Source of the DNA: an uncultured virus (IMG/VR IMGVR_UViG_3300025000_000001)
Lineage: Duplodnaviria > Heunggongvirae > Uroviricota > Caudoviricetes
Virus record (IMG/VR): IMGVR_UViG_3300025000_000001
Direction: 5' to 3' (one strand)
Length of the DNA stretch: 64,000 nucleotides
Shown here piece after piece: positions 22,392 to 62,764 of this stretch. Under the pieces are notes generated by a model, which worked only from the letters and a program-made list of their open reading frames with translations, did no database searches and had not been told where the DNA came from. Numbering within the stretch: the first letter of the stretch is position 1; every line of letters starts with the position of its first letter. Position numbers and translations under genes: made by a program.

Positions 22392-23259
22392 TATAATTCT
22401 CCGAAAAATTCGTCCAACGTCTTTTCACCATAACCAAGAGCGGCCATACACACTCTTAATTTTTGAAAAACCGTATCCGTTTCTCTTCCGTCAAGCCACA
22501 GATCAAATTCCCTGTGAACTTTGGTAATCATCTTTGTTTCAGGATTATATAGACTAAACTTCAGCACATACTTATCGTTATTTTCGTTTTTCATATTTAT
22601 TCACTCCTTATCATATTATATATTTGTGTTCTAACTCGTAACAGGATTAGTAAATCTTACCATAACATCATATGTCGCTTTTTTACAATTACAACTCGCA
22701 ACAGTAAACTCATCACCTTTAGTTTTATAATATGCTCTTAGTCTATTGACAGTTTCTTTCGATATCAAAACATTCATACCAAAATAACTTCTTTCCCCGT
22801 TGAGTCGGTGACGTTCTATTTCTGAAATCATAACATCAAAGGTTTTCATTTTGTAATTCCTCTATAAAGTTTAGTTGTTCATAAGTCAGTTGAGGAACTT
22901 CCAAGTCTTGCTTCTTTGAAGAATAATCCTCTAGGGTTTCACTTATTTTAATTAAAATTCCATCTTCAGAAAAAATTCTATATGAGCCAGGACATACTTC
23001 AGTGATAATTTCGGGGCGACCAGTAATTGTTTCTCTGCGATATCGAATATTATGTTTTCTCATTCTGCAAATAGAAAGACCATTGTATCTTCTGGCCGAT
23101 TCTGGAACAACATAGCGGAGAACAAATTCGTGTGCGCAATCAGGGCAGATAATTTTGTTTGGCATATTTCTTTATTTTTCCTTATTTTTGTTAGAATTGT
23201 CTGGAATATAACCAAAATTAGTCACATTCCAGACAAATTCTAGGGATAAAAGTTTAGTT

Positions 23260-24009
23260 TTAGCGATTTCGATTGTTTTGGTTGTGAAACTCGGCTTCCG
23301 CCTGCTTTAGTACGTCTAAACGCCGTCCAGGGGGTGTTTTTTCTTCTTTGGTAGAAACAGTCTCTAAGACTTGCCGAATTGTAGTCGTAAAGACTTCTGC
23401 AAAACCACAAATCAAAAACGTCCCAATCACGGCAATTGCAGAAACCAGATTATATAAAAGGGGAATTTCTTGGAATTGGCTATTGCCAATCATCAAGAAC
23501 ACCGGACTAACATCAAGGGTTGTGTCAATCAGCCAGATAAAGGCTCCCAAACCAATAGCAACCCAAACGTCTGCTGTAACTTTGTGCGCTCGAATTTGTT
23601 TCCACTTATTTTTGATAACGGCAAAGAAAAATATCTGTGCCGCCGCAAAGGTTAAGCTGAAAGCAGAGCCGAACCAGACAGAGCTAACTCCAAAGGCTTC
23701 CAAGTTTTTACCAAATAGAACGGACATGGCGATACCACCCATTACAACGTCCATTAGGTTTGCCAGAGCCAAGCCACCAAACAAAATGATAACCTTCATA
23801 AAGTCCAGAAAAATTTCCAGATATTCCAAAGAGGTTGCCCAGATGTTTCTTTCTTTTCTAGCTGGGGTTTGGTTTTGATATGCTTGTTGAGGTTTTTGGT
23901 TTACCTTCGGTTGATAACTGTTCGGTTTTTGAGGTCGAGTTTCCTCAAAATGATTGGGGTCAAACTGGGGGATGTAACGAGATTCTTTTTCATTCGGTTT
24001 CTGAAACAT
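23260..24009 (-). CDS. Multi-pass membrane protein with a Q/P-rich N-terminus
   Basis: About four hydrophobic segments. Confidence 0.65.
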   Translation of the reverse strand: MFQKPNEKESRYIPQFDPNHFEETRPQKPNSYQPKVNQKPQQAYQNQTPARKERNIWATSLEYLEIFLDFMKVIILFGGLALANLMDVVMGGIAMSVLFGKNLEAFGVSSVWFGSAFSLTFAAAQIFFFAVIKNKWKQIRAHKVTADVWVAIGLGAFIWLIDTTLDVSPVFLMIGNSQFQEIPLLYNLVSAIAVIGTFLICGFAEVFTTTIRQVLETVSTKEEKTPPGRRLDVLKQAEAEFHNQNNRNR

Positions 24010-24270: not shown

Positions 24271-24967
24271 CTTCATCTTCCTTCAAAAGATCGTCTAATT
24301 CTTTCTCAGATAATTTCTTAACTGAGCCAGCAAATTCAACGCTATGTGATTCCAGAAAAATCACAACCAAGTCCAACAATTTATCCGCAACTTCTTGAGT
24401 TGAGTTTTCTAAGAGCATCGATAATTCGAAATAGGTTTTATTTTCTTCAGTCATGCGAAACATCCTTTTTATTCGTTCCAATGATTGATCAGGGTTCCAA
24501 CGGTAAGGCCAACTATTGCCAAAGTAAAAATTACAACAATCGTAAAAGGAATGGTATACTCAGCATTACCTCCTTTGCCGAAATTAATCCAATCGTATTG
24601 AGACATTTTCGCAAGAGAAATTCCGTAAATTGATCCCAAAATGAAAGTTAGTAAAAACTTTATTTTACCCATTAGAGTCGTTTTCATTCTTTTTCTCCAA
24701 GACTTCAAAAATCATTCTCGCAAACCAGAGCGGAATTACAAAGGTTACAGAACTTCCCTCTTTTCGTTCTCTTATCCCAAGACCGGGGTCAAAGGCATAC
24801 ACAAACAGTTCTGGAAAAATTTCTTCAAACTTATTCTTTGCGGCAAGATATGTGTCAATTTTTTCTTTTGCGTTCATAATTTCCTCTTTCGTGATTTGTC
24901 GCCTTTTCTCATTTGGTGACGATAGTATAACACAAAATACCCCTGTTGTCAAGGGTATTTTGAAAGT

Positions 24968-27574
24968 CTATTTCAAAGATCGGTTAATTTCAGAACCCAA
25001 TCTTGATGCCGTCCGAATGTTCTCGTTTTCCAAAGCCACATTAAAACGCCCTTCGATTGCTCTAGCTTCAGCCATTTTCAACTGTTGTCGTCTAACAATT
25101 TCTTCCTCACATGTACCAATATAATACACATAGAAAATCCTGTTCTCTAAGGTTGAATTAGCACGATAACCACGCCTAGAAGCCTGGGATACAACGTTTA
25201 CATGGTAACTTGGAATGTAGAAAATATAAGTAGGACACCAAGTTAGATTGATGCCAACATTGACTAATTTCGGGTTACTGATAAAAACATCGTTTGATTC
25301 AATGTTCTTCTCAATCAACTCTTTGCGATCAATCGGAGAAACGCTTGGGCGCAACCAAAAAACCTTGAAACCTTCTTTCTCAAGAATTCCTTTTAGGCGT
25401 TCAGGAATGTTCTTGCCGCGCATATACTGGCCTTTTTCACTCTCGCCGCTGAAATCAGTGTACACCCAAACCTTACGGTTTTCAGACTTTTCTTTGCGGA
25501 TTAACTCGATCAGTTCTCGCTCTTTCTGCAAGAGGTTTTCTGGATTCAAATTGGCTGGGTTAACAATTTCACTTTCTTCACCCTTTTCGATTACAATTGA
25601 ATGCCAGCCAAAAGGATTGTTTACATAATGTCTCTGCAAACTGTCTTGATACATCTTGTAATTGTAAGAGTTTGCATCTTGCAAATCTTTTCCAAAGCGG
25701 TTTTCAGCAATTTTCAATTCTTCATCTGGTACAACGGGGATATATTTTTCGACTAAATCAGGAAGATTATTTCCAAGATCATCCAGATTTGCAAAGATAT
25801 AATTTTCAGCCAAGAACTTTGTAAAACAGACGGGGTTTACACCTTCAATTTCTTTGAATTGACTATCTGAAATCTGGGAGCGTCCGCGCCGATGATAATA
25901 TCGCTTATCATCTACGATTTTACTTGTTGCCTGTAATGTTCCGTACTTCTTTACAAATTCTTCTTTTTCTACAACACCATCTTCAACCATTTTTTGAGAC
26001 ATTAATCCCATTAGAACATTGTGCAAAGATGAAGAATATCCATTGTTAGAAGTTCCAGACAAGCAAATAACTTTATCACCGTGATTGAAAACTGTCCTTA
26101 TGGCGGTTCCAATAATACTATCTGAGTTATTAGATTCATGTGCTTCATCAGCAATCAGGAAATTGAAACGAACACCTTTTACTTTGATGTAATTTATTAA
26201 AGATGTTTTCTTGGTCTTATCGTATGTCTGCTGCCAGAGAACAGAATCACAATTTCCACATTTATAATTTGATTTTCGTGGTTGACCAACAAAATCATCG
26301 GCCTTAAAAAATACATCTTCGGACTTTCGATTTTCATTTTGTAAGGCTCGGCCACAATTCGGACACTGAGCAAACTCGATCAGAACTTCTCGTTCTACAG
26401 CCTCAGTAAATCTTGACCAGCTATATCGTTTTTCCTGACTTTTTACTTTCAGTTTGCGAGAAATATTACGAACACCACCAACCAACTTGCTATCCAACTT
26501 GAAAGTTTCCTTACCAACAAGGTAAAACGTTGGTTTTACAGGCTTCGGATTATAATTTCGAATAAAGTCAACCGTAGATCGGATGACATGAATTTCCGCT
26601 TCATCGTCAATGCTATCAATGATTTCTTTTTGCCATTGCTTCAAAGTAATTGCTGGCGCTACAATTAAAACATCATAATTCGTTTTTCCGTTCTCTTTTG
26701 AGAGCGAGTGAATGGCTTTCACGCTTAGACTGGTTTTTCCTACGCCCATTTCTGCACCCAGATACAATGACTTAGATCGGCGTAAAACTTCAATAGAAGA
26801 TTGAATAATTGAAACCTGTCCATCATAAGGTTTGATTTTTCCCTCAAACATAAATGGACTGATTCTGTTTGGATCATACAAAACTTGAATATTTTCCTTT
26901 AGTTTATTTCGAATGACATTACTAAATTCAAAAATATAATCTTCCATGTCTTCAATCTTATCCCAGTCATATTCGCTGGAAAATTCTGGAAGCCTGAAAG
27001 ACCCAAGTTTACCAAGAAAAGTATTTACATCAACAAAGTACACTTTCAGATTTTCAAACTCTGGATTGTTGGTAACGACTGAAATTTCAGAAACCCAAGT
27101 ATAAGATGATGAATAGTACGAATTTGATGCTTTAGTTTCTTGTAAACCAATCATTCGTTCTACTAATTCTTCGTTTACTGGAATAAAATGCTTTGCTCGC
27201 AAAAAATCAGTAATTTTCTTGATCTTAGAACTTCCATCCCAATCAAAAATATACGAACCCACTTCCGAGTTCGAAATTATCGTGTGAGTAAATTCTCCAG
27301 CCCGATCAAACTTATATCGCCATCGAACACCAGAAGTATTCAGTTTTAAGGAATAATCCTCATTCTCTCTATCTCGAAGTTCCACGCTAATTCCGCCAAA
27401 TCTTTCTCCAGAAGAAATCACAAAATCGCTCGCAACTTTTTTAGTGCGAACATTGATATCGATCAGAGAAATCAAGACTGGTAAATTTCCATGTAGCACC
27501 AACAAATCTGCTGAACAATTTACAGTAGATTTATTTCCGTTAGTTCGAACATATGGCATTGAAATTTTACTCAT
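24968..27574 (-). CDS. SNF2-like SF2 helicase/ATPase with a Zn-ribbon insertion
   Basis: EMGVGKT, IVAP, CPNC...CGNC, ADEAHE, LSGT, VGINL and QASRRGYR. Confidence 0.9.
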   Translation of the reverse strand: MSKISMPYVRTNGNKSTVNCSADLLVLHGNLPVLISLIDINVRTKKVASDFVISSGERFGGISVELRDRENEDYSLKLNTSGVRWRYKFDRAGEFTHTIISNSEVGSYIFDWDGSSKIKKITDFLRAKHFIPVNEELVERMIGLQETKASNSYYSSSYTWVSEISVVTNNPEFENLKVYFVDVNTFLGKLGSFRLPEFSSEYDWDKIEDMEDYIFEFSNVIRNKLKENIQVLYDPNRISPFMFEGKIKPYDGQVSIIQSSIEVLRRSKSLYLGAEMGVGKTSLSVKAIHSLSKENGKTNYDVLIVAPAITLKQWQKEIIDSIDDEAEIHVIRSTVDFIRNYNPKPVKPTFYLVGKETFKLDSKLVGGVRNISRKLKVKSQEKRYSWSRFTEAVEREVLIEFAQCPNCGRALQNENRKSEDVFFKADDFVGQPRKSNYKCGNCDSVLWQQTYDKTKKTSLINYIKVKGVRFNFLIADEAHESNNSDSIIGTAIRTVFNHGDKVICLSGTSNNGYSSSLHNVLMGLMSQKMVEDGVVEKEEFVKKYGTLQATSKIVDDKRYYHRRGRSQISDSQFKEIEGVNPVCFTKFLAENYIFANLDDLGNNLPDLVEKYIPVVPDEELKIAENRFGKDLQDANSYNYKMYQDSLQRHYVNNPFGWHSIVIEKGEESEIVNPANLNPENLLQKERELIELIRKEKSENRKVWVYTDFSGESEKGQYMRGKNIPERLKGILEKEGFKVFWLRPSVSPIDRKELIEKNIESNDVFISNPKLVNVGINLTWCPTYIFYIPSYHVNVVSQASRRGYRANSTLENRIFYVYYIGTCEEEIVRRQQLKMAEARAIEGRFNVALENENIRTASRLGSEINRSLK

Positions 27575-28975: not shown

Positions 28976-29593
28976 GATAAAATATTGCTTTTAGTTTTCT
29001 ACTACGCGGGAGGAACGATCACAGGAGGAAAGACGACTATACAGGGATTATCACGAACGTCACTTTCAGTAAATCCTGCGGCCTCAAGCAGAGGCGTTAG
29101 TTGAGTAATTCCAACTAAAACTCCCAAGATGGGATCATCGGTATAAGTTCCCTCAAAAGCGTTCTCTTCTGGTAAAATTGAATATGAAGTAGCTAGAGTA
29201 TCTGAAGCGATAATAACTTGGTATGATGGGTTTTGACGCTCAAGATAATTGATCCAGTCTTTTACGGTTGCCATAATTTCTCCTTGTGTTTTTTTTGATT
29301 GTTGAATTGGATTGGAATATATCCGCTCCATTGTAGTAAACATACTGAAATTGATCTTTTTAAAATTTAGAAAACCCAACGTAAATTTCAAAATTTGTCG
29401 GAATTTCGGAAACAACCCTTTGAAATTTATAATCTCCACAATTCTGATCGGCTAGAAACTTAGCTGAAAGTTCATCCCTAGCCAGAACCGTTGCTATAGC
29501 GTACTGATAGTTGTAAGAATATAACAAACAGTACAACTTTATTTCTTTGTTTTTTGATCCGAAATCAAACATTTCGCTCCTAAAATGATCTTT

Positions 29594-30295
29594 TTATTTG
29601 ATCTTATATAAAACTTCAACGGTTTTATTTCGACCAGTTTTACTATTCATATCTTGCTTGCTTTCATATTCCCAAACAATCTCACAGAAATCTGGAACGT
29701 TACGAGAATATTCAGACACATATATATGCAGTCTTTTTGATTGTTCTTTTAACCACTCATAAAATTCAAGATGATCAAACTCCCCAACCAGAGAAGAGTA
29801 GCTGGTGGTTCCTTTGTACGGAATATCGCAATAAACAAACCAACCATCAGGAATTTTTACCTTTTTGTAATCTTTAGATATAAACTCAACGTTTTCTAAG
29901 GTTTCAAACTTTTTTAACAAGGAATTTGCTGCATTCAAACAAAAATTTCTTTCTGAATTTTCTCTGGCGTATCCTCCCCACCACTTTCCACCGAAAGACA
30001 CGCCAAATCCAGCGAAACCGTAAAGAGCGGGATTAACTTTATCTGGATTATTTTTTATATAAAGGTATTCTTCCTCGCTCATTTTTAAAGGTGGTTGCCA
30101 GCCAGATTTTAGACCATTGAAGATTTGAATCAGGTAGTAGTGCTTATCATTTGCAACTCGGCATTGAGAATTTATTCGACTGATGACGTTGCACGATCCA
30201 CAGAATAGATCAACAAACGGATGCCCCTTGATCTCAGAGTTCAAAAACTCAGAAATGGGCTTTGCAATTTTGGCCTTACCACCGAAATATCTCAT
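29594..30295 (-). CDS. DNA adenine methylase (Dam / D12 family)
   Basis: MRYFGGK, DLFCGS, VYCDIPY, FDH.EF and YVSEY. Confidence 0.9.
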   Translation of the reverse strand: MRYFGGKAKIAKPISEFLNSEIKGHPFVDLFCGSCNVISRINSQCRVANDKHYYLIQIFNGLKSGWQPPLKMSEEEYLYIKNNPDKVNPALYGFAGFGVSFGGKWWGGYARENSERNFCLNAANSLLKKFETLENVEFISKDYKKVKIPDGWFVYCDIPYKGTTSYSSLVGEFDHLEFYEWLKEQSKRLHIYVSEYSRNVPDFCEIVWEYESKQDMNSKTGRNKTVEVLYKIK

Positions 30296-31603
30296 ATTTT
30301 ACCGCCTTCTAAAACCCTAATTTTATTTCTCTAAGCCCCACAGGAGGGACAATTGTTGACCTTATTGTAATCATATCGGCTTCCGCAATATGAACAGGTG
30401 TGCCTTTTATTGTTGGTGTTTCGAACAACGGCGTATTTGTGAGATATCACATGAGGTTCCAATATTTTATAGAACCTTTCAGCCATTTCATTTTCTTCAA
30501 GACTATTTAAAGAATTGCTAGGATCAGATAAAAATTGTCTTTGAATTTCTTGATAACCGATCTTGGCATTCATCTCTTCAGTCCAAATAAAAGAAAAATA
30601 TCCAATCATTTGAGAATATGCCCAGTTTATAATCGGGGCATAATTGCTAAAGTCATCTTTTTCCTTACCAGAAAGTCTATATATTTCTTTCATCATTGCT
30701 GAGGCAAGGATTTTTTTCTTGTCCCAGAAAGACAGTTCTTTTCCGCCATCCTCGAATTTACAAAACAACAAATTTTCGTATCCCATGAGACTCAAAAAGT
30801 GTCGGATATAATCCTGAAATTGTAAATAGATTAGAGTTTGTTTGTTTAAGTGGTCTAGCTTCAATTTGTTTGTTTCAAATACTGTGTTGATCATATATTT
30901 TATTTCTCAATTACTCAAATCAAACCAGTCAACTCTTGGGTCTGCAAAGTTGTTTTTTGGACAATGATGATTCTTTCTTGGATCATACTCTTCTTGGCAA
31001 AGATCGCAAGTAGGAAATCCATACGCTGGAAATTCTTCTGGTTTTTCAAAGAATTTAGAAATAATTTCTTTCAGTCTTTGTAAACAAGGATTGCAAATAT
31101 CGGAATCTGCCCACCGTTCCCTTTGAGCGACCCAGTTTGTCAAATCTAAGTCTAAAACCATCGTATCAAGAAAGTGTTCATTATTGCTTTTCTTGCCGCA
31201 AATATCACAAGTAAAAGTTATTTCTTTTGACATGCTGTTCTTTAATATCCTCCAAGTTTTACTTCTACTCTGCACCCAGGATAACCAACCTTTAGCCATT
31301 CGATCAATTCATCGACTGCTGGCATGATCTTTATAGCATGACCAAACATATCTCTTGCCTCAAACGAATCGCTCTCAGGAATATAGACAATCGAAAAATT
31401 CATTCGCTCATCTCTACATAATAAACGTGGTTTGCAACTCCGTCACCAACCCTACGATAAATTCGATATCTACCATTTTCACAGTTTGAAGAAACTGTAT
31501 ACCCATTCCTATCTATAAACTCTTGAAATTGACTGGAACTCATAACAGGATGACTAAACCCTCGTAAATCTGACACAATATATTCCATCATTTTATTATC
31601 CTT

Positions 31604-32118: not shown

Positions 32119-32700
32119 TCAACTGAAATTCTGCTCAAAAAACTCAAGCCAAGAACTATGAATCATAATTGCTCGATCCTTCTTACCATAATTATACATA
32201 TACCAGCCATCCGAAGGGGTTTCGCAAACTCGGATGTACTTTTTGTTCCTCAAGGCCAGAATTTCGGATTGCCACTCACTATCCTCAAAACCGAAACAGT
32301 CATCAGATAGCAAATCATCTTTAACCTTGACTCTAAAGGTTCTTGCCTGCCACCCAGCATTCTCAACCGCTTCAAGAAACTTAGTCATGTTTCCAAGAGC
32401 TTTTTTGGAAATACACATTGCTACACCCTTTTCTGGGTCAAATTCGTCGTTTTCTCCACATAAAACTGTGGTTTTAGACCCATCTTCCCAATTGACAATT
32501 GTCATTGGAGGATTGAAGATAACTTTATTAATTTTCAGTGGTAGAGTCTCTGGAAACTTGATAGTACATCCCCAACTCACAATCCCCGGTAACGCCTTCC
32601 AATTTCCATTCGCATCAACATATGAAAAACTAACAGAATTACTACTACCGCCATCATTACTCACATTGCTCATACTATTCACGCTGCCCAACGTTGCCAT
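32119..32700 (-). CDS. Conserved phage hypothetical protein
   Basis: Motif KVIFNPPMTIV.WEDGSKT.V.C...D.FDPEKG.AM. Confidence 0.65.
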   Translation of the reverse strand: MATLGSVNSMSNVSNDGGSSNSVSFSYVDANGNWKALPGIVSWGCTIKFPETLPLKINKVIFNPPMTIVNWEDGSKTTVLCGENDEFDPEKGVAMCISKKALGNMTKFLEAVENAGWQARTFRVKVKDDLLSDDCFGFEDSEWQSEILALRNKKYIRVCETPSDGWYMYNYGKKDRAIMIHSSWLEFFEQNFS

Positions 32701-35544: not shown

Positions 35545-35612
35545 TTTTACCTCTTATGAAAATCTACTTTTATCGTTCAATGATTACATTCTACCACAAC
35601 ACGAAAAATCTG

Positions 35613-35894
35613 TCAAGGGTTTTCCTCAACAAATTCTTCATGTTCCTGAATTTGGTATTCCTTCTTTTTATAGTCGATAACGTACCAGAAGTGATTGGTT
35701 CTGATGGACTTATGAAAAATAATTGGGGTTTCTCCGTAGACCTCAGAATCACCCTCTACATGACAACTGGGATGCGTCCAGACTGCTAAAACCGAAGTTT
35801 TATATTTATCTTGGCAGTATTCAAAGCCACGCTTTATTTTCTGTTCCAGAGTGCGCTTTGGGTCATTATCAAACCACATCATTCCTGTTGCCAT
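35613..35894 (-). CDS. Hypothetical protein resembling a family I recall from Anaerolineae
   Basis: GMMWFDNDPKRTLEQKI.R...Y..KY.....V..HP. Confidence 0.55.
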   Translation of the reverse strand: MATGMMWFDNDPKRTLEQKIKRGFEYCQDKYKTSVLAVWTHPSCHVEGDSEVYGETPIIFHKSIRTNHFWYVIDYKKKEYQIQEHEEFVEENP

Positions 35895-49113: not shown

Positions 49114-49142
49114 TAAAATCCCCGTTTTAGGCGGGGATTTTA
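49114..49142. terminator. Intrinsic terminator hairpin
   Basis: TAAAATCCCCG-loop-CGGGGATTTTA after the 49152 stop codon. Confidence 0.75.
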
Positions 49143-49151
49143 ATAGAATAT

Positions 49152-50276: not shown

Positions 50277-50349
50277 TATTTCATTCTCCTGTAAACACAA
50301 CTCTCTTGACAGAATTTCCGCCAAGAGAGTATTTGAATTTTAGATAATC

Positions 50350-50856: not shown

Positions 50857-50857
50857 C

Positions 50858-51019
50858 CTATTCCTCCTTGACTTCGGTTTTCTTTGCAGTTTGGTTCTTG
50901 CGCCACTGTTCGGCATCAACAGCAGCCCAATACCCAAGCCCCTTGTCGCCACTATTCAGGCGACGGCGAATAACTTCCGCCTGCTCACGAACTGGATACG
51001 AACGAATTGCCTTTGTCAT
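50858..51019 (-). CDS. 53-aa hypothetical protein (below the ORF-track cutoff)
   Basis: AAGGAG RBS; MTKAIRSYPVREQAEVIRRR...VKEE-stop; promoter upstream. Confidence 0.6.
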   Translation of the reverse strand: MTKAIRSYPVREQAEVIRRRLNSGDKGLGYWAAVDAEQWRKNQTAKKTEVKEE

Positions 51020-51391
51020 CTGATTTCTCCTTTTCAAAATTTATCGAAACTTCATAGATTCTAACACAGATATTCCAATCTGTCAAGTAAATAAAAGGCC
51101 AATTTTAGAATTACAGATTGGGGTTATTGACCGTTAAGATGCCTTCTATTTCAGCCATAAGCCATTCAATATCATACCGATGATCTGGGGTGACAGCATA
51201 CCAAGTTTTAGCGCATTGAGCAACTGATACAACCCCATTCACGGAGCGAATAATATCAATCACATTGCCGTCAGCCCACACATAAAGTAGATTGTCAATC
51301 AATTCGCCAGTCACAGAGTTGTAAGCAAATTCTACTAAAATTTCTTGTTTCTTTCCATTATTCATTTTCTTTTTCCTTTATAAAAGAGTTA

Positions 51392-51952: not shown

Positions 51953-52664
51953 GCGATAAAATCCTTGACCGACTCCTCTTGAAGTTTCAAGCGCAATGTC
52001 TCTACATCAACTTCTTTAGAAAGTCTTTCGGTAACTTCGATTTCTTTCTGATAAACATTCCAAACAAGTTCATCAAACGTAATCCAAGTGAAATCATCTT
52101 TATGAGAAAATTCTACGCATTCAAAGTCACTAATCATTCCAGTAAAAGCAATTTTTTGTTTTGGGGTATCGTTTGATTGCCAGGAAAAATATTTCTTTTT
52201 GACAACATCTTTCTTGTTGCTGTACTTTTCAATCAGAGAATGAACCTGGATGTATTGCTGAGTAATCTTAGTCCATTCATCCTTTTCACTAGAAAGCCCA
52301 AAGAGATTTGAAACAGTCATTAGAGCATCATAGATTTCAGATTTGTTCATAAAGCCTCCTTATTTGACATACCCAAGTATACCGCGAAAGTTCATTTCTG
52401 TCAAGAGCCAATATTCACTAAATGCTAAATTTTATTCATACCACTTGCTAAAAATTTCGTTGGGAATATACTCTACTTGTTTCTGTGTGTGATTGTTTTT
52501 AGAAACTCGATAGAATGACACTGATGGGGAAGTTTCCAATAAGTTGCAAAGAAAATAATAGCAACCCTTGTCACTGTTTTCCGGCAAATATATCTCGTAA
52601 TTTCCGCCATAAATCGTAAATGTGCTAAACTTAAGCATTCTTCTAAAACTCCTCTTTTATGATC

Positions 52665-55069: not shown

Positions 55070-55101
55070 AAACTGACTAGAAATCAATTCTAGCCAGTTT
55101 A
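55070..55101 (-). terminator. Terminator-like hairpin
   Basis: AAACTGACTAGAA / TTCTAGCCAGTTT, followed by a T-run on the minus strand. Confidence 0.6.
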
Positions 55102-56512
55102 TGTATCAAATTACCAAATTTACAGTAAAACGCCACAAAAGCCTTCCTGGTGGCAAACAGAGGGTGTTTTCGTAAAGTTTTGCATGGGTAAAATGTTATT
55201 TTTACTCAATCGTATCTTCTTCTTCATCCTCTTCAAAAACAAAGGTTGGCAAAATCAGATAAGTTAAATGTTTTGGGGCGCGACCATCCTCTAAGCGTTC
55301 TTGTAAAACCTCGGTAGCACGAACCATACTGACAAATCGCTCCCTACAAGGTTTTGGAAAAACCTCAGAGTTATAACTATCGTGGATAGCACCCCCAAAA
55401 CCTAAATGAAAAATACGATACCAAACATTGTGTAATAGACTATTACGCATTGAAAGCTCCTTCAATAGACTCTGCAAAACTTTCTTTATAATCATCAACC
55501 CAAACTAGCTCCCAAGTTGAACAATTTACAACCCGATATTTAGTATTCTTTTTCGGTTTGCTCTTATAATGCCAGGGCCATCGAATAAGAAATTCCGTAC
55601 AATCTTCATCCAAATAGCCCACAACATCGTTTTTCTTAGCAAGAAGTTTTTTATCATGCTCTGAAACATATTGGGAGCGCAAATTTTCATCAGTTGTTGG
55701 CTCATATCGAACGTAAATTTTCATAATATCGCTCCTAAAAGTCTGGTTTTATTCCGGCCAACCACCGGGTCCAGTTTCCCAACTATTTAAAGTCTTAGGA
55801 AACCGGTAGTTAGTTTTCTTGGACGCTTTCTTCAATCCTTCAATGTTGAAATGATTTTTGGCCGCTTCAAGGGTTACTTCTCGCAAAGTTTTCCCATCCC
55901 AAACATACCATTTAGTTTTAGGGTATATGTTCGCTTCAAAGCGATACCACTCGCTGCCTTCAAACCAAATATCAGTTCCGTATTTATCTAATCCCCAAAC
56001 AAAACTTTTGCCAGCATTCGCATTGATTTCTTCGATGTCGTAAGCAAAATCGGTTTGATGAAACTTGACAGTTTCGGCTACAATTTCAGTCATTTCTCGC
56101 AAAAGTTCTTTGTTCATTTCAATCTCCTTTTCGTTTGATTGAATATATTTTACACCCGATTGGGTTTCCTGTCAAGAGGGAAAACCCAACCAAACCGGCA
56201 TTCCCCAAATTCCAGTGGAGGCATGACGTAAAACGATCAGCAGTAGGGCCACAATCAATAAAAATGCTATAAATGAGAGAGCGGTTTTCATAACTTATTC
56301 CTTTTCCCAAAATCCGGTTTCGATTACAAAAAATTCATCAACTCCTCCGCTAGAAAACATTCCAAATCCTTCGGAATAGTAACCAACGGCTAGGGGATTT
56401 TCCTTCAGAAAAGAAAATACTTCATCTTGAGTCATAATAGCATCTCTGAAATTTGACATATTTTCTGTGGGTACAATTCTAACCAGCATATCAACCTCCT
56501 AAAATGTAGTTT

Positions 56513-56845
56513 TTATTCAATCTCATCCAGATTTGAAATTTTACCCAGAATGTTTTCTACTTCTGTTTCGTTTAGCCATCCCAAAACATCATCAGTAATC
56601 GGAGTAGAATAGTCCAATTCGCCGGTGTGATTGGTTACTGCGAGTTCCCACAAGCCTTTTTCACGCCCATAGGAAAACCGGTGTCTAACCACACTAGCGC
56701 CGCGCCCATTGCTAAAACGAAAAACATACTGAATGCCGCCATGCAAATTATTTTCCTCAGCAAACGGAAATCCAAACTTGATTTTACCATTGACAGCATC
56801 ACAAAAATCATCAAACAATTTATCCGCTTCATCTTGATCAATCAT
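56513..56845 (-). CDS. Conserved phage hypothetical protein
   Basis: F.NG.GASVV....SYG...GLWELAV...TPITDDVLGWL. Confidence 0.65.
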   Translation of the reverse strand: MIDQDEADKLFDDFCDAVNGKIKFGFPFAEENNLHGGIQYVFRFSNGRGASVVRHRFSYGREKGLWELAVTNHTGELDYSTPITDDVLGWLNETEVENILGKISNLDEIE

Positions 56846-57269
56846 TTTATTTTCTCCTAGTAAATTCGTTCTTTTATCTAACTGAATATATTTTACTCGA
56901 TTATTCTTATCCTGTCAAGGATAAGTTTATTCTAGCTCGTATCCCAACTTTCGCAATTCCTCATCACACCACTCTTTTCCGCTTCCTGCTGGCCCAATCT
57001 TCCAGTTCAGATTATCAAAGGAATCACCAGAACATTCAAGATTTCTAATTCGTGGATAAATATCTCCGGCGAAAGCATAGCGATTCGCAACATCTCGATA
57101 ATCGCTTCCCTCTATAACTCGGATTGAATAATACTCATAATTAGGAATTTTCATCCAGGGTGAAAGTTTCATTTTTACCTCCATCAAACCATTGTTTTAT
57201 TCTTCACTAAATATATTTTACCATAGATCGGCAGGGGAGTCAATCCCCAATTTCGAAAAATATTTTCCC

Positions 57270-57560
57270 TTTAATACTATTAAATATATAGTAGTATTAT
57301 ACTATTAGTATTATATATTCTTTTATTAAAGGTATTTAATTAAGTATACTATACTAGTAGTATTAGTATAATTAAAATAGTAGTAGTAGGGGCTGTGGAT
57401 AACTTTTTTGAAAAGGTAAAATCCGCCTAATATACCCCCATATATGGGGGTTAATGCCTGTTTTTAGACACTAACCCCCATATATGCCTGTGGATAACTT
57501 TTGATTTTCTGTGGATAACTTTCTAATAACTGTGGATAACTTTCTAATAACTGTGGATAA
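57270..57560. promoter_or_regulatory. oriC-like replication origin: AT-rich unwinding element, DnaA-trios and five DnaA boxes
   Basis: TGTGGATAA (= TTATCCACA) at 57394, 57489, 57510, 57531 and 57552; (TAG)4 plus a GGGGC spacer next to the first box; about 110-bp AT-rich tract; long intergenic gap. Confidence 0.85.
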
Positions 57561-60500
57561 GTCATCCGGGTAAAACCTCCGTTTTATCAGATGAAAATGG
57601 TCAACTTTGGGTAAAATTGATTTTTTATCCACTGGTAACAGTGTAAAACCATGAACCGATAATTACAGATAGCCCCAATTTCTTTATAGACTTTTCAATC
57701 TCGCTTCCATTCGGAATAATCACAACAATTCTATCTCCAACGGCAGGGGTAATTTTATGCCCGTTGGGAAGTGGATATTTATCGCCCCAGGGAACTTTAC
57801 TTCTGTACTCCGGAAGGCTATACCAGTTATGATCTTCTGCTAAGTAGATTAGTCGCTCTTTCATTTTACCTCCAGGATGTTAGGGAAGTTTTCACCCTCT
57901 CCGAAATCTTGCCAGAACTTGAAATCTGCATATCCCTTAGTTAGCATTTCGCTAACCGGACAAACTACCTGATAATTATCGTGATTAGTCCAGGCTTTTC
58001 CTGCTAAGGTGTGAGAGCCATCGTCTTCAGCAGACTCGCTTTCTACGATGACTATACATTCGCTCAATTGACCTAAAACATCAGCGACAATAACTCCCCA
58101 GCCATTAGTCCAGTATCCTTCAGTCAAATCCCAAAAGACACAATCAGAGCCTTTCTTCTTCAAATCTTCTCGAATTTCTTTCTTTTCAATCCGATCAGCG
58201 ATCAATCGGATTCGCAGAGTTTGACCGTTGTTTTTCTTGATAAATTTTACTTCCATTTTCGTTCTCCTTATTTAGTGATAAATATATTTTACCACAATTT
58301 ATTCTGCTGTCAATAGTGAGTTTTATTCCATTTCAAAGCCGGAATTCTTAGCACAAGAATAACAATAAAACTTTTTGTCTTCAGAGCCATAGTATCTTGC
58401 AACCATTTCACAGAAGGAACACTCCCAAGAATTTATTGGTACAATATGGCTGTGAAGTTTTTTTCCAACAAATTTGTATTTTGATGTGAGCCATAAAAGT
58501 TTTTGAGTCATGTTCTTACTCCTTTATTCATTCGATAAATAAATTATACTACAAATCAATCCTGTGTCAAGAGGGAATTTCCGCCAATAATTTAATATCA
58601 AATTCAGGTTTTATCCCATGACACTACAAGCCATTCTGAGGCTGTTTGGAATAATATACGTCAATTGTATACTATTCAATACAAAAAGCCCCCAGAATCG
58701 TTTCTGGAGGCTTGTAGAGGCATGTTTTTGTATTTCTGCCATTATTCTAAACAAATAAGGCTTGATATTCTGAATCAAAATCAATTACAATTTCAGGTTT
58801 GCCAGCCCACAAATCCCACATCCGGTCTTCAATTTGCCAAATTTCTCCAGGCTGAACTTGCAAATACTCATATCCCTTTCGGAGATTCAATTCAGTCCAT
58901 TCTTTTCCGTTCGGCTGAGGCTTGATCTTTTCGTAGAATGCGCCATCTAATTCTAGCATCAGTTTTTCGGCTTGACTTCGAGAGTTTACATTAACTGAAG
59001 TCACAGAGAGATAACCGTTTTCCTGAATGACTCTAACCGACTGAGGGAATACAACCCGATAGAAATAATCTCGTTTCATCTTACCTTTCCTTATAACCTT
59101 CTGCTACAAGTTTAGAAGTAAATTCCGCCAACCTTTTCTTGTTCTTGAAGATTTTTAGATCAAAGAATTCGCTTCCATCTTTGTGAGTTTTTTCGCCATC
59201 ATGGAAACTAACAGAATATTTGGATGTTCCGATTCCGTATTGGGTATAAAAAACTTTGTTTGAAATGCTCATTTTAGTCATCTCCTAAAACTTGTTTGCA
59301 ATAAGAGTGTAATTCCTCTATTTCGTCTTCTGATAACTTCCTACCGGAATAAGTCATGTTGTAAACCTTCTCGACAATATCCCTAAGATCAGAAGATAAG
59401 GTAATCAGTTCTCCAAGAGTTGAGTCGCTAGAACTTCGGTAAAACCTAATCCAGTCCGTCAAGCTCATTTCGTGTAACTGTTTCATTTTATTTTCCTTCT
59501 TCATCCTCTTGCACTAATCGGGCATTCAAATCCCACACAATCGAATCGATTTCATCGTAAGATTTGGCAGCATAAAGAGCATGTGCCAACTCGGTAGCAT
59601 AATCTGCTACAGCACCAGAACCAAATAGACAATACAAAGCCCTTGCTACATCGTATTTTGTGGTTTCGCGGCTGTCAAATTGATCACTCAGGGGAATAAC
59701 TTCGATTTTGTGTACAGTTTCAATGGTTAAAATTGGTTTCATGCTAATTTTCCTATTCAATCGTAGTGGTATGAATGTTAGTCGCGCCGATATCAAGCAA
59801 ATCTTGATAAAAATTATTGTACTGTTTCGCGCTCCAGGTAGGGACAATCTGCCAACGTTTGCGCCCATCCCTGTCAGTCCATTCAAAACGAGTTTTAGCA
59901 TTCATGGCCCATCTCCTTTATCAAATGTAACTTTTATTCTAATCCGCTTCATAGACCTGTTTAGCGCCGCCGCGACCCAATTTGCCGGATTTTAGAAAAT
60001 TGAAAGAATGCTCTGCAATCCAGTGAGAGTCTGAAGTTAATTCTACATTCGGAATGCCGCCAGGATAAATACGCATTACCCGATCTAAATTCTCTACGGT
60101 CAAGCGATAAATAAAAGCCGCTTTGACTTGCTTTATCTGGTCAGGTGTTAGATTTTCGCCTTTCACTAATTTACCCATTTGATTTAACTCCTGTTTGCTT
60201 ATCTTTTGTTTCTAACTCTTGATATATTATAAACCAAGAGTTTTATTTTGTCAATAGTCAGTTTCGGAAACCTTGAAGATAAAAACTTCAGACCCTTCGC
60301 GATTCCGAACGACTGCCCGATATTCATTGATTCCAATGGATTCTAGGGTAAACTTTCTGGAATAGTTTTCTTCAATATATTCACTGATTGAAAACACTAC
60401 ATCGTCCGTTGTTGAAAACTTATCCAGCGAAATTTCAGCATAGTAAACTTCAACTTGTGTCATGTTTTCCGCCATTATTTAGATTGTAGCAAAGAAATCC

Positions 60501-62764
60501 GCAAACTTGCAGAGAGTATTGTAAGTTCCAACGGACATTCTAACTCCGGTATTAGGGATTCCAGTCCGCAAATACCAAGCGTAAATTTTCAAATACCACT
60601 TTGAGAGTAATTTACGTTCAGCAGGTGTAAATTGGGCCAAAAATTCACGCTTACCGCGTCCATAATTTTTGTGGTCGTAAGTTTCAACAATCACAAAGAG
60701 GCGTTTAATATAATCAGAACCAAAAACAGTGACGGTTTTTACACCGCGAAAGTCTACTTGTGGATCGTCTTCATCACTCCGCAAATATTGGAGGGTTTCA
60801 TCGTTCATGTAGAAATTATTCATAACGTCATTCAGGACAGTTTGTTTACCCATTTTTATCTCCTTATCGTTTGATAATTCAATTATATCATATATTCGCC
60901 AGAATGCAAGGTTAAAAGGGCATCAATTTTCCGCCAATATTTACCATAAACAGGCATTCATAATTTCGACGGCTGATTTCAAGGTAATGATACCATCCGA
61001 ATCATATTTAATTCCAGAATCAGATGTATAGTCCAGAAAGAAATCTTTAGAGCGGATTAACGGCAAAACATCCGAAGGGCTAAGTCCCTTGTTTTTCGCC
61101 TTAGTATACCCGATGATGTATCCCCTAATTTCCGCTTTTAATTCATTTGATAAAGTTAGCATGTTTTACTCCTTTTTACTCCTAATTTCCGCCATAAAAT
61201 AGCATTTTTAGATATGTGTACCAGAAGGGTTAAACTCTTTTTCTTTTCCTTCACCCTTCTTAATGGCGTAGTTTATGATCTTCTTCATTTCTGCTAAAGT
61301 TCCGACAAATGGGGGATATGAATTGTAAACAGAATCTTTGCGAAAGAATAAAAACCAATCTCCAGTTAATGAATTCTGTACAATCTCAATACCCTTATAG
61401 TCTACCTTGTTTTGCGCCATGATTACTCCTTGAACATCCGATCAAAGTAGATTTGTGAAACTTCAAATTTCCAGTCTTCAGACTGAGAATCAAGCCAGTC
61501 TCTAAAATACGCCATAGAATCAAGTTTGGTTGCATTCTCTGTTAGTGGCCCTTCAGCATAGCAGAGATTGAAAAGTTCTTCTAGCACATCGTTATATTCT
61601 TCAGGTGAGATATCCATTTTTGCTCCACTAAATGACAGTTTTATTATCCGACTTTGACAAAAATCTTGACAGTTCCCATTGCTGGATTTATCGCCATTAA
61701 TTCAATTCGATAACGAATTTCGTTATCACCAACAATTAAATCTCCGGCAAAAATTGCCATTTCTTCACTGGTAAAATGTTCTAAAAATCCGACAAAATTT
61801 GAAGTTTCAAATCCGTTTTCGTAAAATAAAATCTTCATTCCGTTTACTGAAGTCATTTTTTATTTCCTTTCTACTATGATTATACCGCGATTTGCGCCTA
61901 CGTCAAGAGTCAATTTCTGCAAAGTCACTGAAAGCCCATTCAACCCACTTGTTAAACATTTCATCCCACTCTGCCGGGTCATCTGGAATTCTGATTCCTT
62001 TTTCTGCGTACCATGCTAAGGCGTGGTCGTTCATTGTCGTTTTTGAGTTGTCCATTTTGCGCCTATGTCCTAAAAACAAAGATGACTATAGAATTTCACG
62101 GCATAACTCAGGCTTGAAAATTCTTTAACTGTTTTTCCATTGATATTTAATCGAAAAACCTGATAATTCGAGAGATAGTCTTCAATTACAAAAACGTGGA
62201 AAAGTTCTTTATTACCATATTGATTAGCTTCAGCCGCCAGAAGTACACTATATTCACCCGACAAATCGTTATACTCAGTCATTTTTTAGCTCCTATTTTT
62301 CCGCCATAAAATACTTCTTTGATTATTCCGACTAAAACGATCAGAATTCCCCCTAAAATCCTGATTTTATTAATCTAAAGCCTTCGAAATTGCCATGCGC
62401 GCGGCAGTTTTCAAAATACAAGTTTGCCCGGCCTGAGTCAAGAAATCTCCGCATTCCTTTAATTCTTTGCCGGTTTTCCCCCAATTTAGACGCATTGCCA
62501 AATTATCCCAAGAATTCAACGGGATATTATTCAGGTGTGCATCAGTTTTGAATTTAGATTCCAGATTTTCAATTCCAAAGTTTGAGACAACGGCAGAAAC
62601 GAATTTTCCGGCAAATTGCTCATAATACTGGTTGAAATTGCATTCCTGACTCAGATATTGTTTTCGCGTGTACATTTTTGTCTCCTTAGATTTCTGTTTC
62701 TACCATACTCCAATTTCTTCTTAAAGTATAGCAGATTTTTGGTATATGTCAATGGTGAACTTTG

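What the first reader, a model, noticed from the sequence alone, without database searches (positions are those of the whole stretch)
23247..62369. Recurrent TAAAA-N6-TTTTA palindrome at gene junctions: candidate cassette-recombination site or global operator
Seen: perfect copies, all with an exactly 6-bp variable spacer, start at 23247, 28978, 29581, 30310, 49114, 51092, 55189, 55736, 56500, 57571, 57612, 61195 and 62354. One-mismatch copies start at 6247, 34583, 41981, 52419, 54096, 56861, 57184, 58598, 59921, 61628 and 62307, and inside promoter spacers at 8230, 11758, 18416 and 60230. Often the motif begins with the upstream gene's TAA and runs into the next RBS (e.g. TAAAACCAGACTTTTAGGAG, TAAAAACTACATTTTAGGAGG). 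The dam gene is flanked by one copy on each side. Known: tyrosine recombinase core sites are inverted arms around a 6-8 bp spacer, and an intact Xer-like recombinase is encoded at 19806-20657. Inference: an integron-like system that inserts or shuffles single-gene cassettes in the accessory region, or the operator of a dimeric regulator. I scanned junctions more closely than coding sequence, so the enrichment needs a formal test.
Basis: partly seen in the sequence, partly recalled or inferred. Interest (0 to 1): 0.85.

Follow-up and report, generated by a model that had tools for sequence, protein, structure and literature searches.

The report
Palindromic gene-junction joints in a phage
A strict 16-base palindrome (TAAAA, any six bases, TTTTA) recurs between the small genes of this groundwater phage; in distantly related Bacillus phages the same motif marks where genes have been swapped, so it is probably a built-in joint for gene exchange, though the protein that reads it is unknown.

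Summary
There are 22 perfect TAAAA-N6-TTTTA copies against 0.9 expected, and no other spacing from 0 to 20 has more than 2. Density at gene junctions is about 7 times that in coding DNA. All genes lie on the minus strand, and in 8 of 22 copies the leading TAA is the upstream gene's stop codon.

This scan has already reported the motif in SPbeta-like Bacillus phages. I checked that on six of them, each with 30-36 copies. Homology breakpoints pile up at the motif edges. Each copy keeps its own six-base centre, in the same order, even where both flanks are unrelated: 92 such pairs, and 347 identical centres against at most 25 by chance. Host chromosomes and five control phages lack the motif.

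The window's phage is only a remote relative of SPbeta. Partial relatives of it share SPbeta's terminase and YonO-like polymerase genes. The window also encodes a Xer-like recombinase with all catalytic residues.

Best reading (0.45): crossover joints read by a dimeric phage protein. Main rival (0.3): a regulator's site that recombines passively. No close relatives of this phage exist, so nothing here is shown directly, and the recombinase link is untested. My searches found no paper that describes the motif.

The parts
6401..6416 (.). motif copy, centre (minus strand) TGAGGC
   Evidence: Scored inside ORF 6263-6433 by my model. Also the only copy in the 26.8-kb record of the same phage.
20858..20873 (.). 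motif copy, centre ACTATG
   Evidence: Inside ORF 20711-21166 (SLOG-domain protein), about 200 bp upstream of the recombinase gene.
23247..23262 (.). motif copy, centre CTAAAC
   Evidence: Its TAA is the stop codon of gene 23260-24009.
24652..24667 (.). motif copy, centre TAAAGT
   Evidence: Its TAA ends ORF 24665-24952.
26523..26538 (.). motif copy inside a gene, centre CCAACG
   Evidence: Lies within the SNF2-type helicase gene 24968-27574.
28978..28993 (.). motif copy, centre GCAATA
   Evidence: Intergenic. A TTGACA promoter-like site follows before gene 27567-28898.
29581..29596 (.). motif copy, centre AGATCA, downstream flank of dam
   Evidence: Its TAA is the stop codon of dam (29594-30295). 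GGAG follows directly, and the next start codon is 8 nt on.
30310..30325 (.). motif copy, centre TTAGGG, upstream flank of dam
   Evidence: The dam start codon is 14 nt after the motif.
32461..32476 (.). motif copy inside a gene, centre CCACAG
   Evidence: Within ORF 32119-32700.
35787..35802 (.). motif copy inside a gene, centre CTTCGG
   Evidence: Within ORF 35613-35894.
45551..45566 (.). motif copy across an overlapping gene junction, centre GTGAGG
   Evidence: Spans the 4-nt overlap of genes 45548-45922 and 45372-45551. The centre is ribosome-binding-site-like, and the last A is the A of the ATG.
49114..49129 (.). motif copy, centre CGGGGA
   Evidence: Overlaps a terminator-like hairpin (49142-49114) and precedes promoter-like site 49101-49073.
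51092..51107 (.). motif copy, centre TTGGCC
   Evidence: Lies 5 nt upstream of promoter-like site 51086-51058.
52644..52659 (.). motif copy, centre GAGGAG
   Evidence: The ribosome-binding site lies in the centre, and the ATG is 5 nt after the motif.
55189..55204 (.). motif copy, centre ATAACA
   Evidence: Its TAA is the stop codon of gene 55202-55498.
55736..55751 (.). motif copy, centre CCAGAC
   Evidence: Its TAA is the stop codon of gene 55749-56117. GGAG follows directly.
56500..56515 (.). motif copy, centre ACTACA
   Evidence: Its TAA is the stop codon of gene 56513-56845. GGAGG follows directly.
57571..57586 (.). motif copy, centre CGGAGG
   Evidence: In the non-coding stretch just upstream of four DnaA-box-like repeats.
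57612..57627 (.). motif copy, centre AATCAA
   Evidence: Its TAA is the stop codon of gene 57625-57864. One metagenome contig stops matching the window at 57619, inside this centre.
61195..61210 (.). motif copy, centre ATGCTA
   Evidence: Its TAA is the stop codon of gene 61208-61420.
62354..62369 (.). motif copy, centre TCAGGA
   Evidence: Starts directly after the stop codon of gene 62370-62675.
63170..63185 (.). motif copy, centre GGAGAA
   Evidence: The ribosome-binding site lies in the centre, and the ATG of gene 62765-63166 is 3 nt after the motif.
19806..20657 (-). Xer-like tyrosine recombinase gene, the candidate reader of the motif (unproven)
   Evidence: Pfam Phage_integrase 1.4e-35. 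Closest solved relative is XerA/XerC-like 4a8e, E 1.2e-29. The R, K, H-x-x-R, H and Y catalytic positions are all present. It is one of only three window ORFs with a match in SPbeta-like phages (YomM-position protein, E 1.1e-7).

Best explanation
The copies are binding sites for a symmetric dimer of a phage-encoded DNA-binding protein. Two 5-bp arms lie one helical turn apart around a free 6-bp centre, which is the layout of a tyrosine-recombinase core site. They act as fixed crossover joints at gene borders. When related phages meet in one cell, DNA is exchanged at copies with the same centre, so whole genes or small gene groups are swapped without damaging their neighbours. Because the centre is free, it can carry the stop codon, ribosome-binding site or start codon of tightly packed genes.

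Shown: the motif, its exact spacing and its junction bias in this window; breakpoints at the motif and conserved centres in SPbeta-like phages; and restriction of the motif to the phage.

Inferred: that the same process acts in this phage, that a protein reads the arms, and that the protein is the Xer-like recombinase (19806-20657) or a YomM-family relative.
For: In the window:
- 22 copies against 0.89 expected, and only at N6.
- About 7 times denser at junctions. 17 of 136 junctions carry a perfect copy: 11 of 56 in 44-64 kb and 0 of 31 in 1-20 kb.
- The centre is not self-complementary (5 of 22 at the inner pair, read), and all 22 centres are distinct.
- The motif is kept even where it must overlap a stop codon, ribosome-binding site or ATG.

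Same motif in six SPbeta-like phages:
- 30-36 copies at N6, 4 or fewer at N3-N9 otherwise.
- blastn homology ends pile up at the motif edges. 125 of 213 left ends fall at -8..+3 and 86 of 197 right ends at +16..+23, among ends within -60..+76 of a copy.
- 384 of 850 motif junctions have a breakpoint within 25 nt, against 1096 of 5270 other junctions. This is pooled over non-independent genome pairs.
- The centre is identical in 63 of 67 left-only and 62 of 73 right-only homologous site pairs.
- 347 identical-centre pairs among 16,991 compared, against 4.1 (uniform) or 13.6 (letter-shuffled, maximum 25) expected. In 92 of them neither 50-nt flank is homologous.
- 36 of 45 shared centres have more than one flank family. 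Order is identical (Spearman 1.00) among the four records that share a start point.
- In such pairs identity falls to background within about 5 nt of the motif.

Phage-specific:
- A Virgibacillus genome has 28 copies within 126 kb around its YonO prophage. The whole genome has 76, against 67 for the reversed control.
- Four other host genomes are at or below control.
- SPO1, a crAss-like phage, P23-45, Emery and TR-TP1 give 0, 0, 0, 0 and 4 (control 5).

Lineage link:
- Partial relatives of the window phage carry 2, 2 and 4 copies (expected about 0.1-0.2), and the complete relative G006 carries 1.
- Two of these relatives (G003, G006) share terminase, a YonO-like polymerase and other genes with SPbeta-likes; G003 also has a YomM-like recombinase and a tape-measure protein.

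Candidate enzyme: Xer-like, with all catalytic residues.
Against: - Nothing is shown directly for this phage. No close relatives were found in four scans, and no joined forms appear in four metagenome runs.
- Only 5 bp per arm is conserved, and the window's flanks show no consensus. That is short for Xer-type sites.
- 39 viral loci with related recombinases (22-36% identity) show no N6 excess: 5 against 6.9 expected. Only one locus has 3 copies.
- All relatives, including G006 with a single copy, encode such recombinases.
- SPbeta YomM and YopP have Lys where the second catalytic Arg should be. MrpR, of the same fold, is a non-catalytic repressor (PMC10516654, abstract and passages). In this phage group the fold may therefore only bind DNA.
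- Most breakpoints lie at junctions without the motif. The test restricted to SPbeta 83-134 kb is weak (p = 0.049, 0.012, 0.15, 0.78, 0.047).
- Laboratory phi3Ts x SPbeta hybrids crossed over inside long identical blocks of 1.4-18 kb. Ordinary homologous recombination is therefore enough to make hybrids, and those events cannot be placed at the motif.
- Five to eight window copies lie inside coding sequence.
Confidence: 0.45

Rival explanations
1. The motif is the site of a dimeric phage regulator or architectural protein that acts on gene expression at each gene border, for example as a roadblock, insulator or silencer. Recombination at the copies would then be a passive by-product of short conserved identity, as proposed for the promoter/stem-loop cassettes of T4-type phages.
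For: - Half-sites one helical turn apart around a free centre fit many helix-turn-helix operators as well as recombinase sites.
- Copies sit just upstream of genes, over or next to ribosome-binding sites.
- Three promoters (8245, 11773, 18431) carry cAAAA-N6-TTTTA in their spacer, and three perfect copies lie just upstream of promoters.
- In this phage group a recombinase-fold protein is a proven repressor (PMC10516654, abstract and passages; bioRxiv 10.1101/2025.11.27.690993, section 5).
- Breakpoints are also common at junctions without the motif.
- Laboratory hybrids arise by ordinary homologous recombination.
Against: - A regulator that ignores the centre gives no reason for each copy's six-base centre to be kept, in order, where both flanks are unrelated (92 pairs; 27 of 45 centres vary on both sides).
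- Most copies are not in promoters.
- Pfam and PHROGs found no candidate regulator among the window's proteins.
- The known SPbeta repressor box is a different, asymmetric 26-bp sequence (bioRxiv 10.1101/2025.11.27.690993, section 5).
Confidence: 0.3
2. No dedicated protein is involved. The AT-rich palindrome is a fragile or template-switch-prone DNA structure (hairpin or cruciform) that stimulates breaks or strand switching. Selection then keeps only recombinants joined at gene borders.
For: Between two relatives (G003:41963 and G004:24167) the flanks are collinear but the six-base centre is the exact reverse complement. Hairpin-mediated inversion would produce that result. Two metagenome contigs stop matching inside a centre (57619, and 60239 in a one-mismatch copy).
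Against: - The 5-bp stem with a 6-nt loop is unstable: mean +0.21 kcal/mol with DNA parameters and +1.48 with RNA parameters.
- Structure alone does not explain the invariant TAAAA/TTTTA letters, the exact N6, or the absence of other palindromes.
- There are 0 flips among 239 homologous site pairs in SPbeta-likes.
- Breaks at the centre should scramble the centres, yet they are conserved.
- The two loose ends are 2 of 27 and close to chance.
Confidence: 0.1
3. The motif acts in RNA as a small hairpin or protein site at the start of each cistron, controlling translation or mRNA processing.
For: In at least 4 of 22 copies the centre holds the ribosome-binding site, and in 3 more GGAG follows directly. 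The 40-nt minimum-energy fold contains the stem at 9 of 22 copies. In the one-mismatch class the first T fails 12 times and the last A once, so there is an asymmetry along the transcribed strand.
Against: - The hairpin energy is positive.
- The distance to the start codon varies from -1 to over 400 nt.
- In SPbeta the motif sits 20-35 nt before start codons and never over the ribosome-binding site.
- An RNA role does not explain conserved centres or breakpoints.
- The one-mismatch asymmetry can come from TTTTATG start codons and promoter spacers.
Confidence: 0.07
4. The motif is a compositional by-product of stereotyped junctions: a TAA stop, an A-rich stretch, a ribosome-binding site, a T-rich stretch and then ATG.
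For: Gaps of 12 nt between genes are common in my gene model. Several one-mismatch copies and two copies in a relative read TAA-AA-ribosome-binding site-TTTT-ATG.
Against: - N5 and N7 have 0 and 1 copies against 22 at N6.
- Markov order-4 models trained on junction DNA expect 0.56 against 14 observed.
- Only 1 perfect copy ends in a real ATG, and the TAA is a real stop in only 8.
- Coding copies are also 12-20 times enriched.
- SPO1 has none.
Confidence: 0.03

Closest known systems
Core sites of Xer-type tyrosine recombinases (dif, difH, archaeal dif)
   Same: Inverted arms around a 6-bp centre. A Xer-like recombinase with full catalytic residues is encoded in the window. The known need of many tyrosine recombinases for identical centres in both partners would explain why exchange keeps each copy's centre. 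That requirement is established knowledge, recalled and not tested here.
   Different: Xer sites are single per replicon with roughly 11-bp arms (recalled). Here there are 22-36 copies per genome with only 5 conserved bases per arm and a different centre at each copy. No binding or cleavage has been shown.
Heterospecific lox/FRT sites used for recombinase-mediated cassette exchange
   Same: Many sites share arms but differ in the centre, and exchange of the DNA between two matching pairs would give the observed pattern of conserved centres in conserved order with variable cargo. This comparison was also drawn in earlier notes of this scan.
   Different: That system is an engineered use of Cre and Flp, and no natural phage system of this kind is known to me. 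The enzyme here is unidentified.
PeSL cassettes (promoter-early plus stem-loop) of T4-type phages
   Same: A short repeated intergenic element between small early genes of a large phage, proposed to mediate modular gene shuffling.
   Different: PeSLs are longer promoter-plus-hairpin units that recombine by homology. Here only 3 of 22 copies adjoin a promoter, the hairpin is unstable, and the conserved island is only about 16-21 bp.
Integron attC/attI cassette system
   Same: Single-gene-scale cassettes bounded by palindromic sites, together with a tyrosine recombinase.
   Different: There is no attC-like structure. Many cassettes have their own promoters. No site is duplicated. The sites are not arrayed next to the recombinase gene.
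Stoperators of cluster A mycobacteriophages (L5 repressor; recalled)
   Same: Two to three dozen copies of a short site in short intergenic gaps across a phage genome.
   Different: Stoperators are asymmetric, oriented and fully specified 13-bp sites bound by the immunity repressor. Here the site is a palindrome with a free centre, and no repressor is known for it.
SPBRE / MrpR (SroF) operator of SPbeta-like phages
   Same: A repeated intergenic element of the same phage group, bound by a recombinase-fold protein (PMC10516654, passages).
   Different: It is a different sequence: an asymmetric 26-bp A/T-rich box bound by a monomer, at about ten promoters (bioRxiv 10.1101/2025.11.27.690993, section 5; PMC10516654, passages).

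Membership tests
Tyrosine-recombinase core site (Xer/dif-like) | Two inverted binding arms around a 6-8 bp centre | tested here: met
   TAAAA / TTTTA with exactly 6 bp between them; 22 copies at N6 and 2 or fewer at any other spacing.
Tyrosine-recombinase core site (Xer/dif-like) | Arms of roughly 11-13 bp with conserved sequence | tested here: not met
   In the window only 5 bp per arm is conserved and the flanks show no consensus. In SPbeta-likes there is weak extra conservation at -6, -4, -1, +4 and +6.
Tyrosine-recombinase core site (Xer/dif-like) | A cognate recombinase with catalytic R-K-H-R-H-Y | tested here: inconclusive
   A Xer-like protein with all six positions is encoded, but nothing ties it to the motif. 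39 loci with related recombinases show no motif excess.
Tyrosine-recombinase core site (Xer/dif-like) | Recombination products joined at the site | tested here: inconclusive
   Met in SPbeta-like phages. For this phage there are no close relatives and no joints in four runs.
Tyrosine-recombinase core site (Xer/dif-like) | Protein binding and strand cleavage at the edges of the centre | not testable with these tools
   Needs EMSA or footprinting and an in vitro or in vivo recombination assay.
Integron | attC sites: imperfect palindromes of about 60-140 bp with conserved outer cores (recalled definition) | tested here: not met
   The sites are 16 bp with no conserved flanks.
Integron | Promoterless cassettes in an array next to the integrase gene and a common promoter | tested here: not met
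   About 20 near-consensus sigma-70-type promoters lie among the cassettes. The copies span 6.4-63.2 kb, while the recombinase gene is at 19.8-20.7 kb.
PeSL-type regulatory cassette | An early promoter joined to a stable stem-loop at each copy | tested here: not met
   3 of 22 copies adjoin a promoter. The stem energy is positive.
SPBRE / MrpR operator | Matches the published box sequence | tested here: not met
   The published 26-bp box is asymmetric and unlike the palindrome (bioRxiv 10.1101/2025.11.27.690993, section 5).
Operator of a dimeric regulator | Palindromic half-sites about one helical turn apart | tested here: met
   The centre-to-centre distance of the arms is 11 bp (read from the motif).
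Operator of a dimeric regulator | Position overlapping or next to promoters of the regulated genes | tested here: not met
   Only 3 perfect copies lie next to promoters. Four one-mismatch copies lie in promoter spacers (8245, 11773, 18431, 60245). Most copies are between a stop codon and the next ribosome-binding site.

The most novel reading that the evidence does not exclude
A broad group of large phages carries a natural cassette-exchange system. The group includes SPbeta-like Bacillus phages and this remote groundwater relative, linked by YonO-type polymerase and terminase genes. A Xer/YomM-family recombinase would exchange DNA between co-infecting genomes only at 16-bp core sites whose six-base centres match. 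The two to three dozen different centres per genome would then work as positional addresses that keep gene order while allowing any gene between two addresses to be replaced.
Probability: 0.3. Interest if true: 0.9.

Novelty: new variant of a known kind. Interest (0 to 1): 0.75.

Why it matters
Phage genomes are mosaics, and how unrelated genes come to be swapped cleanly at gene borders is a long-standing question. A short palindrome with a position-specific centre that marks the swap points would give that question a concrete, testable mechanism. It can be tested in SPbeta, a genetically tractable Bacillus subtilis phage.

This window adds four things:
- The motif is not confined to Bacillus prophages. 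It also occurs in a remote groundwater relative with a different replication module.
- It survives even where genes are packed so tightly that it must overlap stop codons, ribosome-binding sites and start codons.
- This lineage keeps a recombinase with a complete active site.
- If the centres do act as addresses, they could also serve as natural orthogonal sites for genome engineering.

Tried and rejected
- **Close relatives of the 20-64 kb region.** megablast against phage records found nothing. tblastn with the helicase found only 25-28% hits. IMG/VR scans with the 390-aa protein, the helicase and the recombinase found nothing. Both metagenome scans found nothing. No whole genome is held.
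- **RNA evidence.** No RNA holder is listed among the runs.
- **Reads.** Four runs of Logan contigs show no joints, indels or variants. Loose ends fall in a centre at 2 of 27 places, which is near chance.
- **SPBRE/MrpR as the explanation.** Rejected, because the sequence is different.
- **PamR.** Rejected, because its site is different.
- **YonO promoter.** Rejected. YonO starts one late operon upstream of yonK (PMC5467207, passages), whereas the copies lie mostly in early regions.
- **Host-factor regulon.** Rejected, because host chromosomes are at control level.
- **Shared small binding protein between the window and SPbeta-likes.** phmmer gave only RNR, the recombinase and one weak hit (48418-48663 against YotI, E 5e-4).
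- **Pfam and PHROGs.** No regulator was found, and most of 44-64 kb has no family match.
- **Laboratory hybrid phages.** Their crossovers lie in long identical blocks and cannot be resolved.
- **Precise cassette deletions leaving one site.** A flank-matching script found 0 at my thresholds. Hand inspection shows three candidate cases, each with additional changes.
- **Literature.** No paper describing the motif was found in searches for TAAAA/TTTTA/phage/inverted repeat, SPbeta/palindrom/intergenic/recombination or YomM/SPbeta (0 papers). Lazarevic et al. 1999 is not in the library and could not be checked.


Full report
**The observation**

The pattern TAAAA-N6-TTTTA occurs 22 times in the 64-kb window. 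Dinucleotide shuffles give a mean of 0.89 and a maximum of 3 in 100. A scan of spacings from 0 to 20 gives 22 at N6 and 2 or fewer at every other spacing. An unbiased scan of all 4- and 5-mer palindromic dyads ranks it first by a wide margin (Poisson p about 7e-22).

Of its 15 one-mismatch copies, 14 are confirmed. The copy at 61628 is not. The one-mismatch class is only mildly enriched, with 32 at N6 against 8-23 at other spacings.

**Where the copies sit**

All convincing ORFs lie on the minus strand, and GC skew is negative throughout. Read on that strand, the motif's TAA is the stop codon of a real upstream ORF of 77 codons or more in 8 of 22 copies.

I built a crude gene model of my own, with 137 genes of at least 50 aa covering 84% of the window.
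- 14 copies touch junction DNA and 8 are scored as coding.
- Markov models of order 1, 3 and 4 were trained separately on each compartment. They expect 0.31-0.56 junction copies and 0.41-0.64 coding copies.
- The motif is therefore enriched everywhere, and is about 7 times denser at junctions.
- 17 of 136 junctions carry a perfect copy: 11 of 56 in 44-64 kb, 6 of 49 in 20-44 kb, and 0 of 31 in 1-20 kb.

**Anatomy of the motif**

- The centre is not self-complementary (5 of 22 at the inner pair), and all 22 centres differ.
- The flanks show no consensus in this window.
- The position relative to translation signals varies. The ribosome-binding site lies inside the centre in at least four copies, and GGAG follows the motif directly in three.
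- One copy spans a 4-nt gene overlap, so that its last A is the A of the ATG.
- Three copies precede sigma-70-type promoters.
- The 5-bp A-T stem with a 6-nt loop is not stable. Mean energy is +1.48 kcal/mol as RNA and +0.21 as DNA.

**What the phage is**

The window is the early and replication part of a large phage. It encodes:
- a family-B DNA polymerase, a primase-helicase, RNase H and ribonucleotide reductase;
- RtcB and an RNA ligase;
- several DNA methylases, including dam;
- a Xer-like recombinase.

It also carries four tRNA genes. Most small proteins in 44-64 kb match no family, and about 20 near-consensus sigma-70 promoters lie among them.

No close relative exists in the collections I could search. 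One 26.8-kb record is the same phage. The runs that hold it are groundwater and soil metagenomes.

**The lead from earlier notes, and my test of it**

Earlier notes of this scan report the same motif in SPbeta-like Bacillus phages. They read it as 'addressed' crossover joints. I treated this as a lead and tested it on six full genomes: SPBc2, phi3T, SPR, Goe12, Goe11 and SPbetaL1.

1. *Copy number.* Each genome has 30-36 copies at N6, against 4 or fewer at other spacings and about 2.2 expected.
2. *Breakpoints.* In all-against-all blastn, the ends of homology pile up at the motif edges. 125 of 213 left ends fall at -8..+3, and 86 of 197 right ends fall at +16..+23.
3. *Junction test.* 384 of 850 motif junctions have a breakpoint within 25 nt, against 1096 of 5270 other junctions. 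This is pooled over non-independent genome pairs.
4. *Restricted test.* Within SPbeta's early arm the contrast is weaker (p = 0.049, 0.012, 0.15, 0.78, 0.047). Most breakpoints lie at junctions without the motif.
5. *Centres at one-sided junctions.* Where only one flank is homologous, the six-base centre is still identical in 63 of 67 left-only and 62 of 73 right-only pairs. The centre therefore does not travel with either neighbouring gene.
6. *Identical centres overall.* Among 16,991 site pairs, 347 have identical centres. Chance gives 4.1 (uniform) or 13.6 (letter-shuffled, maximum 25). In 92 of them neither 50-nt flank is above the null similarity.
7. *Shared centres.* Of 45 centres shared by two or more genomes, 36 have more than one flank family and 27 vary on both sides. 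Their order is identical in records that share a start point.
8. *Extent of the island.* In those pairs identity falls to background within about 5 nt of the motif.

I regard the core claim of the earlier notes as confirmed for SPbeta-likes. The 16-bp copy, centre included, is a conserved island at which unrelated DNA is joined.

**Limits of that evidence**

Laboratory hybrids of phi3Ts and SPbeta crossed over inside long identical blocks of 1.4, 3.3, 4.9 and 18.2 kb. Some of these blocks begin or end at a motif copy, but the events cannot be placed at the motif itself. Ordinary homologous recombination is therefore enough to make hybrids.

I found no clean case of a cassette deletion leaving one hybrid site. 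Three candidate cases seen by eye each involve additional changes.

**The motif belongs to the phage, not the host**

- In a Virgibacillus genome, 28 copies lie within 126 kb around its YonO-type prophage. The genome total of 76 is close to the reversed-pattern control of 67.
- Four other host genomes are at or below control.
- SPO1 (a Bacillus subtilis phage), a crAss-like phage, Thermus P23-45, Brevibacillus Emery and Thomasclavelia TR-TP1 have 0, 0, 0, 0 and 4 copies (control 5).

**How the window relates to SPbeta-likes**

Directly, hardly at all. Of 196 window ORFs, phmmer links only three to SPbeta-like ORFs: ribonucleotide reductase, the recombinase (E 1.1e-7, to the YomM-position protein of Goe12), and one weak 81-aa hit.

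The link runs through distant relatives of the window (primase-helicase 41-43% identical).
- G003 and G006 share the large terminase with SPbeta-likes (E 5e-155 and 1e-147).
- They also share a YonO-like polymerase (G006, tblastn E 3e-34), a YomM-like recombinase (G003, 4.5e-46), a tape-measure protein and other genes.
- These relatives carry 2, 2, 4 and 1 copies of the motif (expected about 0.1-0.2 each).

The motif is therefore probably an old trait of a wide YonO-phage group, unevenly kept.

**The candidate reader**

The window's recombinase is Xer-like. Its best solved relative is 4a8e at E 1.2e-29, followed by XerA, XerD and XerH. It has all of R, K, H-x-x-R, H and Y, as do the G006 and G003 proteins. 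SPbeta YomM and YopP have Lys at the second Arg position, and MrpR lacks the set.

The link to the motif is unproven.
- All relatives have such genes, whatever their motif count.
- 39 viral loci with recombinases 22-36% identical show no N6 excess within 10 kb: 5 against 6.9 expected. One locus has 3 copies.

**What it is not**

- *Not the SPBRE/MrpR operator.* That is an asymmetric 26-bp box bound by a monomer.
- *Not a YonO promoter.* YonO starts a single late operon.
- *Not a by-product of stop, ribosome-binding site and start spacing*.
- *Not integron-like in structure*.

**Verdict**

The best-supported reading is a protein-read crossover joint at gene borders, whose free centre doubles as a positional address (confidence 0.45). 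The main rival is a regulator's or architectural protein's site that recombines passively (0.3). For this phage the mechanism is inferred from SPbeta-like phages. The enzyme, and whether any catalysis takes place at the site, remain open.

The scan has reported this motif before on other DNA. I found no published description in my searches, but the 1999 SPbeta genome paper could not be read.

Noticed in passing
window 57488-57560: Four DnaA-box-like repeats (TTATCCACAG on the minus strand), three of them at 21-bp spacing. They lie in a roughly 300-nt non-coding gap directly beside motif copies 57571 and 57612. This could be a phage origin or a DnaA-titrating site.
   Followed up: partly
window, minus strand; e.g. 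62306, 61194, 58586, 52609, 50323, 50275, 41127: A second recurrent word, TGGCGGAAA(T/A). It has 6 perfect 10-mers, and 18 copies with one mismatch or fewer against 4.85 expected. Most are intergenic, and twice it directly follows the palindrome (TTTTA-TGGCGGAAA). Function unknown.
   Followed up: partly
G003:41963 versus G004:24167 (loci L029 and L039): Two related phages have collinear, similar flanks, but the six-base centre of the shared motif copy is the exact reverse complement (GTCATC versus GATGAC). No such flip occurs among 239 homologous site pairs of SPbeta-like phages.
   Followed up: partly
G006:48527-51220 and G003:3332-6133: Distant relatives of the window phage encode YonO-like single-chain RNA polymerases (tblastn E 3e-34 and 1e-5 against SPbeta YonO). 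They also encode an SPbeta-type large terminase. The window itself holds no such gene, so it may lie in the unseen part of the genome.
   Followed up: partly
window 44000-64000: About 20 near-consensus sigma-70-type promoters (cccTTGACA-N17-TATAAT, many with TG before the second hexamer) lie on the minus strand among small genes without family matches. This is the pattern of a host-takeover early region.
   Followed up: no
window 8230-8245, 11758-11773, 18416-18431: Three promoters in the replication region share the form TTGACAAAA-N6-TTTTATG-n-TAnAAT. They carry a one-mismatch copy of the palindrome (C for the first T) in the promoter spacer.
   Followed up: no
window 33353-38191 and 16428-17261: An RNA ligase, RtcB and a GmrSD-N-domain protein lie close together, with four tRNA genes nearby. 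One of these is a 98-nt tRNA-Ile(TAT) call. This suggests a tRNA-repair or counter-defence module.
   Followed up: no
window 57619 and 60239 (runs X11, X9): Single metagenome contigs stop matching the window inside the centre of a perfect copy (57612-57627) and of a one-mismatch copy (60230-60245), then continue with unrelated sequence. The other loose ends lie elsewhere, so this is close to chance.
   Followed up: partly
SPbeta-like phages, positions -6, -4, -1, +4, +6 around each copy: All copies share weak extra conservation outside the 16 bp; identity at +6 is 0.89 between any two copies. This hints at a longer site of about 28 bp in SPbeta-likes. The window's copies do not show it.
   Followed up: partly
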